Positions 1,869 through 9,147 of a stretch of DNA of 64,000 nucleotides are shown here, piece after piece; position 1 is the first letter of the stretch, and the number at the start of each line of letters is the position of its first letter. Made by a program: the position numbers and the translations under genes. The notes beneath the pieces are model-generated. The model was not told where the DNA came from, made no database searches, and was given only the letters and a program-made list of their open reading frames with translations. Origin of the DNA: a phage; the sequence record PX423614.1; one strand, 5' to 3'.

Positions 1869-2819
1869 ATGTCAATCTCCGCATCGATTGCTCCGGTAAC
1901 ACCGGCAGAGGATTTCGGTGAGTCAGTGTTCAAAGGAAGAGCTTGCTTTGGTACTTTTAACTGTATGCACATGTATTCTGTTACAGACATTAACGGTGAA
2001 AGTCGTAACCGAACAAGCCTTCGTGATAGAACTTCAGAAATTGAAGTTATTAACTTCTGGCCTCACAATTTTTATGGCGTACCAGCTAAAGATATCGAAA
2101 GAGCTTTGGTTGAAGCAACAGACATTTTTAACTCAATGTCTTGCTATAAAGATATGTTCTCTGTCACTTCGGTGAACTCTATTGCCGTGAACCTTCGAAA
2201 CCATCCAGCAGACAAGGTGTTTACTGGACTAATGACCATCCGTAGCTATTTGGATGGTGATTTTAATGGAATGGAGTTCCTTCAGGAAGGCGTACAAGAC
2301 AAGGAAGAGTTGCTTAAGCGACAACGAATCGGTTTAGCTCTACGCCTAGCTGGTTTAAGTCGTAACTTCTTTGGTCGCTGGTGTTATAGTAATGACGTAG
2401 ACTCAACTGATGAGTCAGCAGCGACTTATTTTGATGGTGACATGAGTGCAATTGCATTTCTGCCACTAATTTGCACCACTGATGAATTTTCTGAAAACGT
2501 ATGGGTTCAGAATGTGTTCGGTGTTGATGATAACCGAGATGGTTATGTACGAAACCATAATGATGGAGTTCTCCGTCGTATGGCACGTCGTCGTGACCAA
2601 GACCCTGACCATTACGAGAGTATGAGTGAATGGTTACGTCTCTGGTCAACTTGTGCAGGTCACAAGAGAGAAGTATTAGATCAGCGTATGGATAGAATTA
2701 CTGTTCGTAGTTTTATTGAACGTCTGATGCAAGCAGTACCTTCCTCAATGACACCAGAAGAAGCTGGTGCCCGTGTTGTTTCCCTTTTTGATGAACTCGT
2801 GGAGTATTACAATGACTAA
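1869..2819 (+). CDS. hypothetical protein (316 aa)
   Basis: ORF track; stop TAA overlaps the next ATG (ATGACTAA). Confidence 0.6.
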   Translation: MSISASIAPVTPAEDFGESVFKGRACFGTFNCMHMYSVTDINGESRNRTSLRDRTSEIEVINFWPHNFYGVPAKDIERALVEATDIFNSMSCYKDMFSVTSVNSIAVNLRNHPADKVFTGLMTIRSYLDGDFNGMEFLQEGVQDKEELLKRQRIGLALRLAGLSRNFFGRWCYSNDVDSTDESAATYFDGDMSAIAFLPLICTTDEFSENVWVQNVFGVDDNRDGYVRNHNDGVLRRMARRRDQDPDHYESMSEWLRLWSTCAGHKREVLDQRMDRITVRSFIERLMQAVPSSMTPEEAGARVVSLFDELVEYYND

Positions 2820-3618
2820 GCGCGCTTTCCTTATTGGCTCTGACCCTGAAATGTTTGTTCGTACTGCTTCCGGTATTATCACCTCTGTGGCTGGTAAGCT
2901 GGGCTGTTCTAAAGATAATAAAATTGATCTGGCTCCTGATGTTCGTCTTCAAGAAGACAACGTTCTGGCTGAGTTTGATATTAACCCACAGAAAGGGTTT
3001 GAAGCGTTTGATGATAATATTCAGCGTGGTATTGATCTGACTAACAAAGTTCTCAATGAACGTGGCATGGAGGCAGCACTTGGGATTAGCTCTCATGTGT
3101 TCACTTCAGAAGAACTTGAATCATTCCACCCGTCAGCTTTTGTATTTGGCTGTACTCCTGATTTCAATGCCTTCACTGGACAAAAGAACCCTTCACCAGT
3201 CGCAACTGATAAGGGTTTGCGTACTGCTGGGGGTCATGTGCACCTTGGTGTCTCCGGGACTTTAGAGATTACTCGACAAACTCAAATGATGTTGGGTGTG
3301 TTGTGTGATTACTTCCTGTCCTTGCCAGCTGTGATCATGGATAAAGACACTCGTCGTAAAGAGTTGTACGGAAAGGCTTCTGCCATTCGCTACAAAGATT
3401 ACGGTATTGAATATCGTTCTCTTTCTAACTTCTGGATTGGTGATAAGTCCACTCGCAAGTTTGTTTATGAGCAAGTGGATAAGGTTGTTCAGGGTTGTGA
3501 TATGGAAGTGTTGATGTCACTTCACTCTCGCCTTCCAATTGAAAAGCTTCACAACATCATCAACAGCAACGATGTTAAAGAAGCGGATAAATTCTCCTCT
3601 AAACTCCAGATTGTATAA
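2812..3618 (+). CDS. hypothetical protein, possibly divergent amidoligase-like
   Basis: ATG at 2812 (MTKRAFLIGSDPEMF) overlapping upstream stop; GSDPE and GGHVHLG motifs loosely reminiscent of carboxylate-amine ligases; product assignment weak. Confidence 0.55.
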   Translation: MTKRAFLIGSDPEMFVRTASGIITSVAGKLGCSKDNKIDLAPDVRLQEDNVLAEFDINPQKGFEAFDDNIQRGIDLTNKVLNERGMEAALGISSHVFTSEELESFHPSAFVFGCTPDFNAFTGQKNPSPVATDKGLRTAGGHVHLGVSGTLEITRQTQMMLGVLCDYFLSLPAVIMDKDTRRKELYGKASAIRYKDYGIEYRSLSNFWIGDKSTRKFVYEQVDKVVQGCDMEVLMSLHSRLPIEKLHNIINSNDVKEADKFSSKLQIV

Positions 3619-3627
3619 GGTGATATT

Positions 3628-4254
3628 GTGAGCTTGTTAAGAGATTTTCAACACTATTATTGTGGAACATGGATTGCTCAGCGATCACCTGATGGTAAAA
3701 ACCTCCCTCTATATGTGCTTGATGTTCGTCAGCAAGGTAACTTTGATATCGACGACTATTCACACGACGCTGAAATGTCTTTAGTGTTTGAGGCGGAACG
3801 CTGGACTAAAAACTCTGAAGGTCAGTTTGAACGTCAGGTTGTTAGTAATATCCCAGTGTTTGATCACAGCCTCATTCTGGAGTCTCCAGATGTAGGATAC
3901 CTTCAGCATGGTAATAACATGGTGAGCTGGACCCATATCAACCCTGTTCGTCAGCGAGCTAAAGGCTTGATGGGGAATAAACTTCGTGGTGCTCCGCCTT
4001 CTCTCGGACGTTCGATTCCGGGTGATTTGGTGTACAACCTGTTTAATCCAGAGTTTGAAGGGTTGGTTACTCGTTTCATCTATATCAATCCTGTCGATGG
4101 AAAAGTTTATTACAAAGGAGCTTACGTTGGAAACGTGCTTCTTGAAGCTGGTTATGGCGACAATGGTCGTCAATCTTTAAACCTTCTGGAGAAGTTCAAG
4201 CATATTTCTTCAGACCTGTCATCATATAATGTAGAGTTGGTGGAATCATTATGA
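3628..4254 (+). CDS. hypothetical protein (208 aa, GTG start)
   Basis: ORF track; stop overlaps next start (ATGA at 4251). Confidence 0.5.
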   Translation: MSLLRDFQHYYCGTWIAQRSPDGKNLPLYVLDVRQQGNFDIDDYSHDAEMSLVFEAERWTKNSEGQFERQVVSNIPVFDHSLILESPDVGYLQHGNNMVSWTHINPVRQRAKGLMGNKLRGAPPSLGRSIPGDLVYNLFNPEFEGLVTRFIYINPVDGKVYYKGAYVGNVLLEAGYGDNGRQSLNLLEKFKHISSDLSSYNVELVESL

Positions 4255-5351
4255 CAACCGTAGCACAAGTTTTTGGATACCGTAACCCTCGCTTATCTGA
4301 ACCGCATCCAAGTATTGCTTTTCAGTGTGGTGTTGGTATTGAGTTAGAAGTCGAAGGTACAACTGACATTGACGCTGATATGTGGGTTTGTACTGAAGAT
4401 GGCTCTCTTCGTGATGGTTGTGAATTAGTATGTGCACGACCTTACAACGGTGAAGAACTACTTCGTGCTATTAACAATCTGAGTGAAGCAGTACAGGATT
4501 CCGGAGCCGAGGGAACTTGGCGCTGCTCCACTCACGTTCATATGGATATGCGTGACGCTGATAGTAATATCCTTAAGAAAGTTATTCTTGGATGGACGTT
4601 CTATGAAAAGATGATGTTCAAATGTTCTGGATACCATCGCTATCGTAGCAACTTCTGTCCAGCTTTTGCTGTCGTTCAAGCACAAGTTATGAATGCTTCG
4701 TCAGCGTTCAACCGAGACGGGGAAGCTTTCTTCCACTCTCTTGTTAATAGCTGGGATAAATATACCTCCCTTAATCTTTTGCCTCTATCTCAATTTGGTT
4801 CTGTTGAGTTCCGTATCTCAGAGCCGAAGTGGAAAAAGAGCCAACTTCTGAATCTGGTCAACCGCTTCTTGGTTCTCAAGAAACTGGCTGTTGAATATGC
4901 AGATTTAGACAATGAAGCTTATGTTGAGAAGTTGAATGAGCTGCGCTTCGCTCCTATGATTCAACATCTACCCCTAGACTATACTCCAAGAGACAGCGAT
5001 CTCACTGAAGGGTATCGTCTTGCTCGTGATATTCTCTTCTGTCGTGAGCAATCTGTAACTTTGGTTGGTCGTGTTCGTGTGCAACAGACTGGCCCTGATG
5101 GTGAAGTCCTTATCAACTTACGTGATATGAATGACTTCTATGGTTTCTTGGGATATGTGCGCGGTAATGCCAACAGTGTCTACGAAGAGATCATGACCTA
5201 CTACACCCCTCAGATTGAAAGCACTCGAATCGCAACGGTTCGTGAAATTCGTCACATATTTGCATTGATGCGTGAATCAGGTAGCAGTGATGATAACGTC
5301 ACTGGTTATATTCCAGACCATCTGGAAATGCAATTAGAACGACTGCTGTAA
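4251..5351 (+). CDS. putative amidoligase (COOH-NH2 ligase, glutamine-synthetase-like superfamily)
   Basis: N-terminal GVGIELEVEG, EDGSLRDGCELV and CSTHVHMD motifs resemble the phage/bacterial amidoligase family; assignment from memory of family signatures. Confidence 0.5.
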   Translation: MTTVAQVFGYRNPRLSEPHPSIAFQCGVGIELEVEGTTDIDADMWVCTEDGSLRDGCELVCARPYNGEELLRAINNLSEAVQDSGAEGTWRCSTHVHMDMRDADSNILKKVILGWTFYEKMMFKCSGYHRYRSNFCPAFAVVQAQVMNASSAFNRDGEAFFHSLVNSWDKYTSLNLLPLSQFGSVEFRISEPKWKKSQLLNLVNRFLVLKKLAVEYADLDNEAYVEKLNELRFAPMIQHLPLDYTPRDSDLTEGYRLARDILFCREQSVTLVGRVRVQQTGPDGEVLINLRDMNDFYGFLGYVRGNANSVYEEIMTYYTPQIESTRIATVREIRHIFALMRESGSSDDNVTGYIPDHLEMQLERLL

Positions 5352-5428
5352 CACAACGGGCGCTCTTATACAGGGCGCATTTAAAGGTTAATTAGATGAA
5401 AGGGTTTACCCTTCAGGTGGATTAGAAA

Positions 5429-7462
5429 ATTTGTGGTATCGTATTAGCTGGCGGCAACATGACCTCAGCAGATTTGGACATTTTCAACCAACTTCTGTAT
5501 GCTGGTGTTTTCCGTGGACAGCACTCAACTGGTGTGTTTGGTCAGCGTAAAGGTGAAAAGCAAGTCTTCTCTTATAAAGAAGCTCTTCCTTCTTATGCTT
5601 TTATGCTCCAGACAGAATATACAAATATTACCAAAGGGCTTACGAACTACGTAGTTCCTCCTTCGTGGATTGTTGGTCACAGCCGACATGCCACTCGTGG
5701 GGCTGTCAATGCTCGAAATGCTCACCCATTTACTCACGGGGATATTACTCTGGTTCATAATGGAACCCTGTTAGATCAAGATCTCCTTCCTGACAGTAAG
5801 CGTTTCGAAGTTGATAGTGAAAACATCTGCCACTCAATTAACACCATTGGAGCAGCAGAGACTATCCAAAAACTGGATGGTGCATTCACTTTGATTTGGC
5901 ATGATGCTAAAGACAACACGCTTCACATTATCCGTAATGATGAGCGTCCTTTCCACCTAGCCCGCTGTGGTTTGGATTGGTTTGGAGCTTCTGAAGAAGC
6001 TATGCTTATGTGGATTTTAGAGCGTTCTAAGTCCCATAAGAACCGTATCAATGACCACTTCGAATGTAAAGTGGGAACTGAGTATATCTTTGATGTGTCT
6101 AACAGTCGTATGACTCTGGTTCAAGAGGTGGAGCACACGCTTCCGGTTTTTACGGTAACGAGTCGCTGGGGCGGCTATTACTCGAACTCCTCTCTTTATC
6201 AGAACCAACAGACAAACAAATCAAGCAGCAGCACAAGCGACATTTACGGAAACAAAGACGACAAGCCCGGCGTGACAAGCGGAGACATTCGTCGTCGTAA
6301 AGCGATTGAAGACCAGAACAAACTGGCTGCCGATCGTGGTCTTCCTTATCGTCGTGATGGTCGTGTGGATATTATTCCTCATGAGTTCCATGCTTATAAC
6401 AACACAGATCGTGGTAAGATGGTTGGTTACATCTACGATGATAAAGCTCAAGAGTATGTCGAAGGGGATGTTCACAACGTAGCCAAAGATGAATATCTTA
6501 AGGCTCTTGAAAACCCAAAGGTAGTATATCGCGGGACGATTGCTTGTATCTCCGAAGTGGACAGTATGATTCGCCTCGTACTAACTTCAGGGCTGTTTGT
6601 TGATGCTACAGATAAGGAGCCTCAAAGCACTACTGCTGATTTTGATGATGATATCCCTTTTGATGCAGAGGACTCCTTCATCACTAAGAATGGTGTAGAA
6701 GTCACTCGTAAGTTCTGGGAATCTCACTCTCATGGTGACTGTGGTGGTTGTGATAAGCACATTGACTGGAAAGATGCTCGTAAGGCTGTGTTTGCTTATC
6801 AGGCATACTGGCATCCAGAATGCTTCGAAGCGTTATCTAAAACCTCTGAAGAGGAAGAAGATGTGCCTTTGGGTGTATGTGCTATCTGTGGTGAAGTCAA
6901 GACTGATTTCGAGTTTGACAACGAAATGAGTAAACTTCGTGGTGAAGACGTTTGTTATATCTGCTCCAAAGAAATCAAAGATAAAGTAAAGAATGTTACT
7001 CTATCTGAAGGTTATATTTGGACTAAAGCAGTAGACACAACCAACCCACGTCGTCCTGAAGTAGCTGTTCGTGTTGATGAACGTATGCTTAGCCGTATGA
7101 TTGTAATGGTCAGCTCAGCAAAACGTTCAGGGGATATTACACTTGCAGATGTTCCTAATTCGTATTTGGAAAAACGTGGTGGTGATACTTATGCCATCTC
7201 TGTTTATGGTCCAAAGAATTCCCCAAAGGAGGTACCCGCTGAGAAAGCGGAGACATTTCCAGAAAAGTCAACCTCTCTCCGAAAAACAGTTGTCAGTTAT
7301 GATGGACAACGAACAGCTGAGTTTACAAAAGCCCTCTGGACTTCAATTGGGTTTTGTGCAGTCTGTTATAAACAAATTCCGTGGCGTGATGCAGAAACTT
7401 GCTCACTGAACAAAGAAAACAGGGTGATCTGTAATTCAGATTACTGTAAAGGTAAACACTAA
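5429..7462 (+). CDS. class II (Ntn) glutamine amidotransferase with C-terminal multi-CxxC zinc-ribbon extension; probable ATT start
   Basis: In-frame CGIV immediately upstream of the ATG at 5459 (TAG-AAA-ATT-TGT-GGT-ATC-GTA); AGGTGG RBS 8 nt before ATT 5429; HSRHATRG...NAHPF...HNGTL motifs typical of PurF/GlmS/AsnB-type GATase; C-terminal CGGC/CAIC/CYIC/CAVC pairs. Confidence 0.7.
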   Translation: MCGIVLAGGNMTSADLDIFNQLLYAGVFRGQHSTGVFGQRKGEKQVFSYKEALPSYAFMLQTEYTNITKGLTNYVVPPSWIVGHSRHATRGAVNARNAHPFTHGDITLVHNGTLLDQDLLPDSKRFEVDSENICHSINTIGAAETIQKLDGAFTLIWHDAKDNTLHIIRNDERPFHLARCGLDWFGASEEAMLMWILERSKSHKNRINDHFECKVGTEYIFDVSNSRMTLVQEVEHTLPVFTVTSRWGGYYSNSSLYQNQQTNKSSSSTSDIYGNKDDKPGVTSGDIRRRKAIEDQNKLAADRGLPYRRDGRVDIIPHEFHAYNNTDRGKMVGYIYDDKAQEYVEGDVHNVAKDEYLKALENPKVVYRGTIACISEVDSMIRLVLTSGLFVDATDKEPQSTTADFDDDIPFDAEDSFITKNGVEVTRKFWESHSHGDCGGCDKHIDWKDARKAVFAYQAYWHPECFEALSKTSEEEEDVPLGVCAICGEVKTDFEFDNEMSKLRGEDVCYICSKEIKDKVKNVTLSEGYIWTKAVDTTNPRRPEVAVRVDERMLSRMIVMVSSAKRSGDITLADVPNSYLEKRGGDTYAISVYGPKNSPKEVPAEKAETFPEKSTSLRKTVVSYDGQRTAEFTKALWTSIGFCAVCYKQIPWRDAETCSLNKENRVICNSDYCKGKH

Positions 7463-7473
7463 GAGGTATAGTT

Positions 7474-7707
7474 ATGGAAGTTCGTAAACTGATGTTGGAT
7501 AACGTGGTAACTACCCGCCGTATTCCGATGACAAGCACAGGATGTGATAACCTCCGAGCAATTCAGAAGTGGATGCAAGAAGGTATTGGGAAGCTGGTTG
7601 ACTCTCCAGTAGAAATCCCTTTTCCAACCGTTATCAATAACGTGTTGGCTGACTATGTTAAAATGAAGGGGATTAAAGTTGAGCCTCATGTCAAGCAAGG
7701 GAGCTAA
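7474..7707 (+). CDS. hypothetical small protein (77 aa)
   Basis: ORF track; RBS-like AAGAGG upstream. Confidence 0.4.
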   Translation: MEVRKLMLDNVVTTRRIPMTSTGCDNLRAIQKWMQEGIGKLVDSPVEIPFPTVINNVLADYVKMKGIKVEPHVKQGS

Positions 7708-7911: not shown

Positions 7912-9147
7912 ATGACTACTCGTATCCGTGTTCTTCCGTATGGCCCGTCTGATTCTGTTAACGCTCTGGTATCTGCTATCAGTGATACTATCCGTGATGA
8001 ACGCATCAATGCTAACGTGATGGGGCTTCTTTCAGAGAATAGCCGCTGGCGTTCTCGTGAAGGTGATGTGGTTGTTAACTACGGGAACCGTCGCTATCCT
8101 GAATCATTCTTTGGTTCTGCAACCGTCCTTAACCGTACCGCAGCCTTATATATGGCAGCGAACAAACGTCGTGCTTTCAGTGTGATGGACCAAGCAGGTG
8201 TTAAAACTGTGGAATACACAGATGTTCAAGAGACTGCTCAGGAGTGGTCAAACACTGGTAATATTGTGTATGAGCGCCATGAGCTGACTGGTCACTCTGG
8301 TTCGGGCATTGTTGTTGTAGAACCGGGTGATTCAATTGGTCAAGCTGAACTGTACACCAAAGGTATTCAAGGCCCACGTCGTGAATGGCGTGTCCATGTG
8401 TTCAAAGGTGTAATCACCTATGTTCAGAAGAAGATTCGTCGCAATGGTTATCGCGAAGACCCTAACTATCGTGAAGATATTCGTAATCACCACACTGGCT
8501 GGGTTTACTCAAGCTCCTTCACAGATGCTCCGAATGACGCCTCTCTGATCAATGCAGTGAAAGCTGTTGAATCAATGGGTCTGGATTTCGGTGCAGTTGA
8601 TATTATCACCAAAGGTCAAGAAGCGTGGGTACTGGAAGTTAATACAGCACCGGGCCTGACTGGTACAACTCTGGATACTTACCGTCATAACATTCTTGAG
8701 TTTGTTAAAGCTCAAAACCCTCTCTATACTCCTCAGTATAAAGTGGTTTACCAGACTCCGATTGAAGATGGAGACGGTGAGTTGGTGGATGATATTGAAA
8801 GTGCTGATGATGAAAACTTTGCACTGGAAGGACAAGTAGCACAGCCGATTGATTCAGTTGATGTGGTTCCTGAAGAAATGCAACTGGAAGGTCAGATGAA
8901 TACTCAAACTATTCGTAATGCACCTACTGGCTACACTTTGTCTCGTGGCTACTGGATTGCAAATATCCGTCATGTCCACAACAACCTGCAACCGAATGCA
9001 ATGTCTGCCAATGTCATCCTGTTCTGTGATGGTCGTAACTTCTACCGCAGTGGTTGGAACGTTCCGGTCAATCCAGTCCAGATTCATAACCCTCGCAAGT
9101 TAGAGTCTGTCAATGTTGAAGGTAGCGAAGTAGCAGTAACTCTGTAA
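7912..9147 (+). CDS. ATP-grasp family ligase (RimK/glutathione-synthetase-like)
   Basis: C-terminal half shows GxDxxxxxG...WVLEVNTAPGL, the characteristic ATP-grasp E-V-N-x-x-PG region, plus basic-loop region RREWRVHVFKG. Confidence 0.6.
   Translation: MTTRIRVLPYGPSDSVNALVSAISDTIRDERINANVMGLLSENSRWRSREGDVVVNYGNRRYPESFFGSATVLNRTAALYMAANKRRAFSVMDQAGVKTVEYTDVQETAQEWSNTGNIVYERHELTGHSGSGIVVVEPGDSIGQAELYTKGIQGPRREWRVHVFKGVITYVQKKIRRNGYREDPNYREDIRNHHTGWVYSSSFTDAPNDASLINAVKAVESMGLDFGAVDIITKGQEAWVLEVNTAPGLTGTTLDTYRHNILEFVKAQNPLYTPQYKVVYQTPIEDGDGELVDDIESADDENFALEGQVAQPIDSVDVVPEEMQLEGQMNTQTIRNAPTGYTLSRGYWIANIRHVHNNLQPNAMSANVILFCDGRNFYRSGWNVPVNPVQIHNPRKLESVNVEGSEVAVTL

What the first reader, a model, noticed from the sequence alone, without database searches (positions are those of the whole stretch)
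5423..5470. Glutamine amidotransferase appears to start at ATT so that the catalytic Cys is residue 2
The only ATG (5459) is preceded in frame by TGT-GGT-ATC-GTA (C-G-I-V), the canonical N-terminus of Ntn amidotransferases where Cys1 is the nucleophile. The frame is closed by TAG just upstream (5423-5425), leaving ATT (5429) as the codon before Cys, with AGGTGG 8 nt upstream. Starting at the ATG would remove the catalytic Cys.
Basis: seen in the sequence. Interest (0 to 1): 0.6.

Follow-up and report, generated by a model that had tools for sequence, protein, structure and literature searches.

The report
Phage amidotransferase gene starting at ATT
A coliphage glutamine amidotransferase gene almost certainly starts at the rare codon ATT so that its catalytic cysteine becomes the first residue; some database records already annotate this, most cut the cysteine off, and the same ATT/ATC start, preceded by a small RNA hairpin, recurs in many related phage genes.

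Summary
In detail: TAG 5423-5425, AAA, ATT 5429-5431, TGT (Cys) 5432-5434, first in-frame ATG at 5459, and AGGTGG 5415-5420 eight bases before ATT. The Cys-Gly pair is invariant in the family and aligns with Cys1 of E. coli GlmS. Most homologues read ATG-TGY at this position. Orthologues such as phiEco32 lack the ATG at 5459 but keep ATT-TGT. The codons between ATT and 5459 change almost only synonymously.

This is not new for this gene. The phiEco32 (phi32_83), SU10_085 and Bas87_0079 records already start the CDS at this ATT, while most of the 99 related phage records, including several RefSeq ones, start downstream and lose Cys1.

Two things go beyond the finding:
- Among 125 distinct leaders of this phage enzyme family, 19 use ATT and 3 use ATC directly before Cys, with repeated ATG/ATT switches between close relatives.
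- 18 of these 22 have a small hairpin abutting the Shine-Dalgarno sequence, against 7 of 95 ATG leaders.

The start is an ordinary kind of rare event, like AUU initiation in infC and pcnB. The recurrent hairpin-SD-AUU module is a moderately interesting, untested lead.

The parts
5360..5378 (+). Hairpin A (GCGCUCU / loop UAUAC / AGGGCGC) just after the amidoligase stop codon. It looks like a terminator but has no U-tract.
   Evidence: RNA fold. phiEco32, NJ01 and KBNP1711 have a different stem sequence (GUGCCUCU...AGGGGCAC) that can still pair.
5396..5425 (+). Nine-codon upstream ORF (MKGFTLQVD*) in frame with the amidotransferase. Its TAG stop closes the frame. It is probably incidental.
   Evidence: It is kept in Aeromonas phage BUCT695 with two amino-acid changes and no Shine-Dalgarno sequence. 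Its ATG is CTG in relative L202.
5397..5415 (+). Hairpin B (UGAA-GGG / loop UUUA / CCCUUCA), whose 3' arm ends at the first base of the Shine-Dalgarno sequence.
   Evidence: Folds (-5.6 kcal/mol). It is invariant in Gordonclarkvirinae. BUCT695 has only a loop change and L202 has an altered stem that still pairs. A hairpin in the same position occurs in 18 of 22 ATT/ATC leaders.
5415..5420 (+). Shine-Dalgarno sequence AGGTGG, 8 nt before ATT.
   Evidence: Duplex with the 16S 3' end is -5.9 kcal/mol, and the spacing matches most other ATT leaders.
5429..5431 (+). ATT, the inferred start codon (read as fMet by initiator tRNA).
   Evidence: Annotated as the start in phiEco32, SU10 and Bas87.
5432..5434 (+). 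TGT, the catalytic Cys (Cys1 of the mature enzyme once the initiator Met is removed).
   Evidence: Invariant C1-G2. Aligns to Cys1 of GlmS 1jxa. Position 2 of the PHROG 4736 profile.
5459..5461 (+). ATG used as the start in most public annotations. It is most likely an internal Met (residue 11).
   Evidence: Searches show it used as the start in IME267, SU7 and HC-25922. It is absent (CTG/CTC) in phiEco32, NJ01 and KBNP1711.
5429..7462 (+). Corrected CDS of 677 codons plus stop: class II (Ntn) glutaminase domain (about aa 2-235) followed by a long C-terminal region with CxxC pairs.
   Evidence: Pfam GATase_6/7, PHROG 4736 covering residues 2-514, AlphaFold model pLDDT 88.5, Foldseek match to the GlmS glutaminase domain 1xff with TM 0.72.

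Best explanation
The amidotransferase gene is translated from AUU at 5429, directed by the AGGUGG Shine-Dalgarno sequence 8 nt upstream.

**Inferred from established knowledge:** the AUU is read by initiator fMet-tRNA. Deformylase and methionine aminopeptidase then remove the Met, which they can do when residue 2 is Cys. This exposes Cys as residue 1, the N-terminal nucleophile that every class II (Ntn) glutamine amidotransferase needs.

**Shown here:** the weak start codon is a maintained feature rather than damage.
- It is kept across three genera of Gordonclarkvirinae and in an Aeromonas phage.
- The same ATT or ATC start recurs in many separate lineages of this phage enzyme family.
- It usually comes with a small hairpin that ends exactly at the Shine-Dalgarno sequence and a fixed spacer.

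**Inferred, not shown:** AUU sets a low or IF3-sensitive level of a potentially wasteful glutaminase inside a polycistronic early transcript. The abutting hairpin keeps the Shine-Dalgarno sequence exposed, or stabilises the 30S complex, so that the poor codon can still be used.
For: **Sequence anatomy**
- The layout is as described.
- TAG is a normal stop for six other long ORFs in the window, and no tRNA gene is present.

**Catalytic requirement**
- C1, G2, R28, G29, H83, R85, T88, N110, G111 and D128 are invariant in 31 homologues.
- The family profile matches GlmS from its Cys1 (E 7e-18).
- The structure model matches GlmS, PurF and AsnB glutaminase domains.

**Orthologues**
- ATT-TGT and the 50-nt leader are invariant while the flanks diverge. 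The 84-nt stretch is at least 95% identical in 97 of 99 records, whereas 73 of 97 records are only 60-80% identical over 2.5 kb.
- ATG 5459 is missing in phiEco32, NJ01 and KBNP1711.
- Among the six aligned phages, the first eight codons after ATT show eight distinct synonymous variants and one amino-acid change.

**Family-wide pattern**
- 125 unique leaders divide into 95 ATG, 19 ATT, 3 ATC, 4 GTG, 2 TTG and 2 with neither a start nor an Ile codon before the Cys (1 TGC, preceded by ATG; 1 CAT).
- The only codons before Cys that are not canonical starts, apart from those two, are the near-cognate Ile codons.
- Five database proteins with apparent propeptides all have ATT-Cys with a Shine-Dalgarno sequence 5-8 nt upstream.
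- In L202 a TAA stop directly precedes ATT.
- Five clusters at 70% or more amino-acid identity hold both ATG and ATT members.

**Leader architecture of ATT/ATC starts**
- A hairpin abuts the Shine-Dalgarno sequence in 18 of 22 ATT/ATC leaders against 7 of 95 ATG leaders (Fisher 4e-12).
- With intergenic distance of 30 nt or more, the counts are 13 of 16 against 2 of 20 (2e-5).
- The ATT/ATC leader is more structured in 12 of 14 independent sister contrasts (p 0.006).
- About 14 different stem sequences are seen.

**Annotation and expression**
- phiEco32, SU10 and Bas87 annotate the ATT start.
- The SU10 orthologue was detected by mass spectrometry among the early gene products (PMC4281155).

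**Literature**
- AUU gave 6-8 times less reporter than AUG or GUG.
- infC has the same stop, 3 nt, AUU geometry (PMC3592434).
Against: - No N-terminal protein sequence, toeprint or ribosome-profiling data exist for this gene or any orthologue that I could find. The phiEco32 genome paper was not available to read.
- The window's own Shine-Dalgarno match is only moderate (-5.9 kcal/mol).
- The leader fold is not significant against shuffles on its own (z -1.4).
- The stronger Shine-Dalgarno sequence in ATT leaders is not significant in phylogenetically independent contrasts (9 of 13).
- The trees used are crude neighbour-joining trees.
- The hairpin statistics use a definition chosen after seeing the data.
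- The regulatory purpose (low level, IF3 sensing, 30S stabilisation) is untested inference.
Confidence: 0.88

Rival explanations
1. Translation starts at ATG 5459, as most public records annotate. The product then lacks Cys1 and is a non-catalytic or differently acting protein.
For: ATG 5459 is the first canonical start. It is used in the IME267 (RefSeq), SU7 and HC-25922 records, and SU7 marks a 4-nt ribosome-binding site before it.
Against: - The ATG is absent in phiEco32, NJ01 and KBNP1711, which have CTG or CTC at that codon.
- The nine codons upstream of it are conserved as protein, with synonymous changes.
- All other catalytic residues are intact, which makes little sense without Cys1.
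- Homologues start M-C-G.
Confidence: 0.03
2. Translation starts at ATG 5396 and reads through the TAG at 5423. This gives a 12-residue propeptide that is cut off autocatalytically before Cys, as with the 11-residue propeptide of B. subtilis PurF.
For: The upstream ORF is in frame, has a weak AAAGG 8 nt before its ATG, and is kept intact in BUCT695. Some Ntn amidotransferases do use propeptides (established knowledge).
Against: - TAG terminates six other long ORFs in the window, and no suppressor tRNA is encoded.
- BUCT695 has no Shine-Dalgarno sequence before the upstream ATG, and both of its changes in the uORF alter the peptide.
- L202 has CTG instead of that ATG and a TAA directly before ATT.
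- Other ATT lineages have no in-frame upstream start at all.
- The Shine-Dalgarno sequence sits at the right distance for ATT, not for a read-through product.
Confidence: 0.02
3. AUU is the start, but it is reached mainly by ribosomes that have just terminated at the uORF stop (UAG, 3 nt, AUU). This is termination-reinitiation coupling rather than free 30S binding.
For: The stop, 3 nt, AUU geometry equals that of thrS-infC, where reinitiation and de novo initiation contribute about equally (PMC3592434). In L120 the upstream amidoligase stop lies 1 nt before ATT and there is no hairpin.
Against: - The uORF start is partly buried in hairpin B.
- It lacks a Shine-Dalgarno sequence in BUCT695.
- It is missing in L202.
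- Most other ATT leaders have no comparable uORF.
Confidence: 0.07

Closest known systems
phiEco32 gene 83 (phi32_83, YP_001671828.1) and its orthologues SU10_085 and Bas87_0079
   Same: It is the same gene with the same leader, and the deposited CDS starts at the same ATT directly before TGT.
   Different: Those are annotations without an experiment that I could find. The phages closest to this window (IME267, SU7, HC-25922) and most other records start at a downstream codon.
E. coli infC (IF3) and pcnB, the classical AUU-initiated genes
   Same: Both have an AUU start conserved among relatives, a Shine-Dalgarno-directed start, and lower output than AUG. infC also has a stop codon 3 nt before AUU (PMC3592434; PMC5499595).
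   Different: In infC the AUU serves autoregulation by its own product, IF3. Here the product is an enzyme, the gene is viral, and the start position is pinned by the need for Cys at residue 2. A hairpin abutting the Shine-Dalgarno sequence is typical here but, to my knowledge, is not part of the infC or pcnB sites.
Class II (Ntn) glutamine amidotransferases GlmS, PurF and AsnB
   Same: The fold, Cys1 nucleophile, Asn-Gly oxyanion hole and Arg/Asp glutamine-binding residues all match. The Met-Cys start with Met removal is shared.
   Different: This protein has no sugar isomerase, PRTase or synthetase domain. Instead it has a roughly 440-residue C-terminal region with CxxC pairs and no confident Pfam match. 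The 'glucosamine-6-phosphate aminotransferase' label in databases is not justified. B. subtilis PurF exposes Cys1 by propeptide cleavage, which is excluded here.
Phage phiEco32-type amidoligase / COOH-NH2 ligase / ATP-grasp gene cluster (Pfam PF14395 'Phage phiEco32-like COOH.NH2 ligase-type 2')
   Same: The gene order is COOH-NH2 ligase, unknown, Amidoligase_2, amidotransferase, DUF7195, ATP-grasp. The same neighbours occur in BUCT695 and in metagenomic loci.
   Different: The biochemical product of the cluster is unknown, and nothing here addresses it.

Membership tests
Class II (Ntn) glutamine amidotransferase | Cys as the first residue of the mature protein (N-terminal nucleophile) | tested here: met
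   Cys-Gly is invariant and aligns to Cys1 of GlmS. It is residue 2 of the ORF only if ATT 5429 is the start. The mature N-terminus itself was not observed.
Class II (Ntn) glutamine amidotransferase | Oxyanion-hole Asn-Gly and glutamine-binding Arg/Thr/Asp motifs | tested here: met
   R28, H83-x-R85-x-A-T88-x-G, H109-N110-G111 and D128-S129 are invariant in 31 sequences. They align with the GlmS motifs.
Class II (Ntn) glutamine amidotransferase | Four-layer alpha-beta-beta-alpha Ntn fold | tested here: met
   AlphaFold2 model pLDDT 88.5. Foldseek top hits are the GlmS glutaminase domain (TM 0.72), PurF, AsnB and EgtC.
Class II (Ntn) glutamine amidotransferase | Glutaminase activity coupled to an acceptor reaction | not testable with these tools
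   This needs an enzyme assay. The acceptor domain or partner is unknown.
Glucosamine-6-phosphate synthase (GlmS), as labelled in several records | C-terminal SIS sugar-isomerase domains | tested here: not met
   Pfam finds only GATase domains and a sub-threshold LIM hit. PDB matches are confined to the glutaminase domain.
Genes initiated at AUU/AUC (infC/pcnB type) | No canonical start can give the functional protein, and the near-cognate codon sits at the required position | tested here: met
   A stop lies two codons before Cys, with no ATG, GTG or TTG between them. This also holds in L058, L070, L105, L029, L164, L166, L168, L181 and L202.
Genes initiated at AUU/AUC (infC/pcnB type) | Shine-Dalgarno sequence at working distance from the non-canonical codon | tested here: met
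   AGGTGG has an 8-nt spacer. 16 of 22 ATT/ATC leaders share the same spacing.
Genes initiated at AUU/AUC (infC/pcnB type) | Conservation of the non-canonical codon among orthologues | tested here: met
   The ATT is kept in every relative whose sequence I read (window, IME267, SU7, HC-25922, ECBP2, KBNP1711, NJ01, phiEco32, SU10, Bas87, one IMG/VR contig and Aeromonas phage BUCT695). The 84-nt stretch around it is at least 95% identical in 97 of 99 phage records, but the codon was not read in each of them.
Genes initiated at AUU/AUC (infC/pcnB type) | Experimentally mapped N-terminus or initiation site, and IF3 sensitivity | not testable with these tools
   No data were found. SU10 proteomics reports the protein but no N-terminal peptide in the text I could read.
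Propeptide-processed Ntn amidotransferases (B. subtilis PurF type) | In-frame upstream start codon giving a propeptide | tested here: not met
   The frame is closed by TAG 5423-5425. TAG is an ordinary stop in this phage.

The most novel reading that the evidence does not exclude
The hairpin, Shine-Dalgarno, 7-8 nt spacer, AUU/AUC arrangement is a dedicated translation-initiation module and not a set of accidents. Phages repeatedly swap it in for an ATG start that usually abuts or overlaps the upstream gene. The hairpin stacks on or presents the Shine-Dalgarno helix so that a stable 30S complex can accept a poor codon. This would make output of the glutaminase low and dependent on the state of IF3 and the translation apparatus during infection.
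Probability: 0.3. Interest if true: 0.6.

Novelty: new member of a known kind. Interest (0 to 1): 0.4.

Why it matters
**Practical value.** Most public records of this phage group describe an enzyme without its catalytic residue. This includes the RefSeq entries for IME267 and KBNP1711, which I read directly. Five metagenomic gene calls invent false propeptides. Anyone who clones the annotated ORF would get a dead protein. A simple rule would fix these records: in class II amidotransferases, take the codon before the conserved Cys-Gly as the start, even if it is ATT or ATC.

**Scientific value.** Natural AUU/AUC starts are very rare; E. coli has two accepted cases. Here one enzyme family offers about twenty independent leaders. 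Close ATG/ATT sister pairs are available for comparison, and the ATT leaders share a hairpin. This is a ready-made natural data set for asking how weak start codons are made usable and why they are kept. The interest is moderate, not a new kind of mechanism.

Tried and rejected
- **TAG recoding or suppression.** Rejected. TAG ends six other long ORFs, and no tRNA gene is in the window.
- **Functional upstream ORF (peptide or coupling).** Weakly supported only. It has no Shine-Dalgarno sequence in BUCT695, its ATG is lost in L202, and both of its substitutions change the peptide.
- **A promoter directly upstream.** The sigma-70 scan found nothing before the gene. The SU10 promoter table lists none there. 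The phiEco32 sigma consensus tAATGTAtA (PMC8948821) is absent.
- **Single-sequence PDB search with the N-terminal domain.** It found nothing. The family profile was needed.
- **The phiEco32 genome paper.** It could not be read, so I do not know whether the authors commented on the ATT.
- **Genome-contig scan.** The first attempt with the 31-sequence alignment failed for lack of a conserved stretch. The second gave only four loci, mostly fragments that look like phage DNA in bacterial assemblies.
- **Stronger Shine-Dalgarno sequence as compensation for AUU.** It was significant in the pooled comparison but not in independent contrasts, so I do not rely on it.
- **Covariation counting on the hairpin.** Not attempted across lineages. 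An alignment would have to be built from the predicted hairpins, which would be circular.
Full report
**Identity of the window.** The region is 99.7% identical to Escherichia phage IME267. It belongs to the phiEco32-like podophages (Gordonclarkvirinae: Suseptimavirus, Kuravirus, Nieuwekanaalvirus). The gene lies in a conserved cluster: COOH-NH2 ligase (2767-3618), unknown (3628-4254), Amidoligase_2 (4251-5351), the amidotransferase, DUF7195 (7474-7707) and an ATP-grasp protein (7912-9147).

**The observation.** The sequence reads TAG(5423) AAA ATT(5429) TGT(5432) GGT ATC GTA TTA GCT GGC GGC AAC ATG(5459).
- AGGTGG occupies 5415-5420, leaving eight bases before ATT.
- No canonical start lies between the stop and the Cys codon.

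**Is the Cys needed?** The evidence says yes.
- Pfam finds class II amidotransferase domains.
- In an alignment of 31 homologues, Cys1 and Gly2 are invariant. So are R28, G29, H83, R85, T88, N110, G111 and D128, which are the residues that bind glutamine and form the oxyanion hole in GlmS and PurF.
- A profile of the family matches E. coli GlmS from its first mature residue, Cys1 (E 7e-18), and also matches PurF and AsnB.
- An AlphaFold2 model of residues 2-234 (pLDDT 88.5) superposes on the GlmS glutaminase domain (TM 0.72).
- A full catalytic set with the nucleophile cut off would be hard to explain.

**Where does translation start?** Four lines of evidence point to ATT.
- *Homologues.* Most begin M-C-G-[IL]-V, with ATG directly before the Cys codon.
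- *Orthologues.* phiEco32, NJ01 and KBNP1711 have CTG or CTC where the window has ATG 5459, yet keep ATT-TGT. The downstream ATG therefore cannot be the conserved start.
- *Substitution pattern.* Among the six aligned phages, the eight codons after ATT show eight distinct synonymous variants (GGT/GGC, GTA/GTC, TTA/TTG, GCT/GCA, GGC/GGG/GGT, GGC/GGA/GGT) and one amino-acid change. This is the signature of translated sequence.
- *Conservation of the leader.* The 84 bases 5375-5458 are at least 95% identical in 97 of 99 phage records, while the surrounding 2.5 kb is only 60-80% identical in most of them. The core is even kept (88%) in Aeromonas phage BUCT695, a member of another family whose flanks do not align.

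**Rivals.**
- *Read-through of TAG from the upstream ATG.* This would give a propeptide like that of B. subtilis PurF. However, TAG ends six other long ORFs here and no tRNA is encoded. The upstream ATG has no Shine-Dalgarno sequence in BUCT695. It is CTG in relative L202, where a TAA stands directly before ATT.
- *Termination-reinitiation from that small ORF.* This remains possible as a contribution. The stop, 3 nt, AUU geometry equals that of thrS-infC (PMC3592434). But the same observations speak against it being essential.

**Already annotated.**
- The original phiEco32 record starts phi32_83 at this ATT.
- So do SU10_085 and Bas87_0079.
- Among 60 listed records, nine have a CDS over the leader, five have no annotation, and 46 have no CDS there.
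- The records I read that start downstream and lose the catalytic Cys are the RefSeq entries for IME267, KBNP1711 and BUCT695 and the GenBank entries for SU7 and HC-25922.
- The SU10 protein was detected by mass spectrometry among the early gene products, but I saw no N-terminal peptide (PMC4281155).
- I could not read the phiEco32 paper.

**Beyond the finding: the family.** I collected loci from IMG/VR, metagenomes, genomes and the protein database.
- Among 125 distinct leaders, the codon before Cys is ATG in 95, ATT in 19, ATC in 3, GTG in 4, TTG in 2, and two odd cases.
- Apart from those two, every codon there that is not a canonical start is an Ile codon one base from ATG.
- Five database proteins that seemed to carry propeptides all have ATT-Cys with a Shine-Dalgarno sequence 5-8 nt upstream. 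Their called starts lie in or before that Shine-Dalgarno sequence.
- Five clusters at 70% or more identity hold both ATG and ATT members, for example L070 and L158 at 85% identity. Their leaders are unrelated, so leader and start codon change together.
- A crude parsimony count gives up to 18 changes.

**Leader architecture.**
- In 18 of 22 ATT/ATC leaders, a 4-7 bp hairpin ends within two bases of the Shine-Dalgarno sequence. This holds for 7 of 95 ATG leaders (Fisher 4e-12).
- The stems differ in sequence, with about 14 versions. The spacer is nearly constant.
- There is a confounder: ATG starts mostly abut or overlap the upstream gene, while ATT starts mostly follow a longer gap. With gaps of 30 nt or more, the contrast remains (13 of 16 against 2 of 20; p 2e-5).
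- In 14 independent sister pairs, the ATT/ATC leader is more structured in 12 (p 0.006). The hairpin is present in 10 against 0.
- A stronger Shine-Dalgarno sequence in ATT leaders did not survive that control.
- In the window, the hairpin is 5397-5415 (-5.6 kcal/mol). On its own it is unremarkable. Its weight comes from the comparison across lineages.

**Mechanism.**
- *Shown:* the anatomy, the conservation, the catalytic need for Cys1, and the recurrence.
- *Inferred from established knowledge:* AUU is read by initiator tRNA as fMet, and the Met is removed because Cys is a permitted second residue.
- *Inferred:* the weak codon is kept because a low or IF3-dependent level of the glutaminase is useful. 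AUU gave 6-8 times less reporter than AUG or GUG (PMC3592434), and it is the target of IF3 control in infC (PMC5499595). A single T to G change would restore ATG, yet it has not fixed in three genera.
- The start position cannot move, because Cys must be residue 2. The start codon itself is therefore one of the few places where expression can be tuned.
- The role of the hairpin (exposing the Shine-Dalgarno sequence, or stabilising 30S binding) is a hypothesis.

**Verdict.** The finding is real and correctly interpreted. It is an instance of a known rare mechanism and is already present in a minority of database records. The recurrent hairpin-SD-AUU pattern is the part worth following up.

Noticed in passing
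window 5360-5378: A hairpin (GCGCUCU/AGGGCGC) lies right after the amidoligase stop codon. phiEco32, NJ01 and KBNP1711 have a different stem (GUGCCUCU/AGGGGCAC) that still pairs, so the structure appears conserved. It has no U-tract, so it is not a classical terminator. One record (phage 4E8) annotates a terminator in this region.
   Followed up: partly
window 5381-5395; L113 2505-2521; L038-L043 upstream of the gene: The motif TTTAAAGGTTAATTAG before the leader resembles TTTAAATGTAATATTAG in Aeromonas phage BUCT695 and TTTAAATGTAAAATAG in 7-11-like contigs that use ATG. Its function is unknown. It does not match the published phiEco32 or 7-11 phage-sigma promoter consensus.
   Followed up: partly
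L011-L112, L121-L200 (family loci): ATG-type homologues mostly overlap or abut the upstream gene (distances of -13, -1, 0 and +1 nt are common), which suggests translational coupling. ATT/ATC types usually follow an intergenic gap of 24 nt or more.
   Followed up: partly
L120 609-615: In this ATT-start relative the upstream amidoligase stop TAA lies 1 nt before ATT and there is no hairpin. Here coupling may replace the hairpin.
   Followed up: no
L014 / L063: One lineage reads ATG TGC TGT (Met-Cys-Cys). After Met removal, one extra Cys would therefore precede the conserved Cys-Gly.
   Followed up: no
window 6200-7459: The C-terminal 440 or so residues have several CxxC pairs (probable zinc ribbons) and no confident Pfam family. 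Homologues have shorter, variable C-termini that also end in CxxC...CxxC. The database name 'L-glutamine-D-fructose-6-phosphate aminotransferase' is unsupported.
   Followed up: partly
L202, L203 (Herbiconiux daphne scaffolds), L201 (Peptococcaceae MAG): Short contigs in bacterial assemblies carry close relatives (61-87% identity) of this coliphage gene. They are probably phage DNA in the assemblies rather than host genes.
   Followed up: no
P0004, P0016, P0017, P0026, P0032 (L115-L120): Gene callers extended these homologues upstream to GTG or ATG codons that lie in or before the Shine-Dalgarno sequence, which created false N-terminal extensions.
   Followed up: yes
window 2767-3618 and 3628-4254: Both neighbouring ORFs are listed with GVG-type starts (GTG) by the mechanical ORF finder. 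Their true starts were not checked.
   Followed up: no
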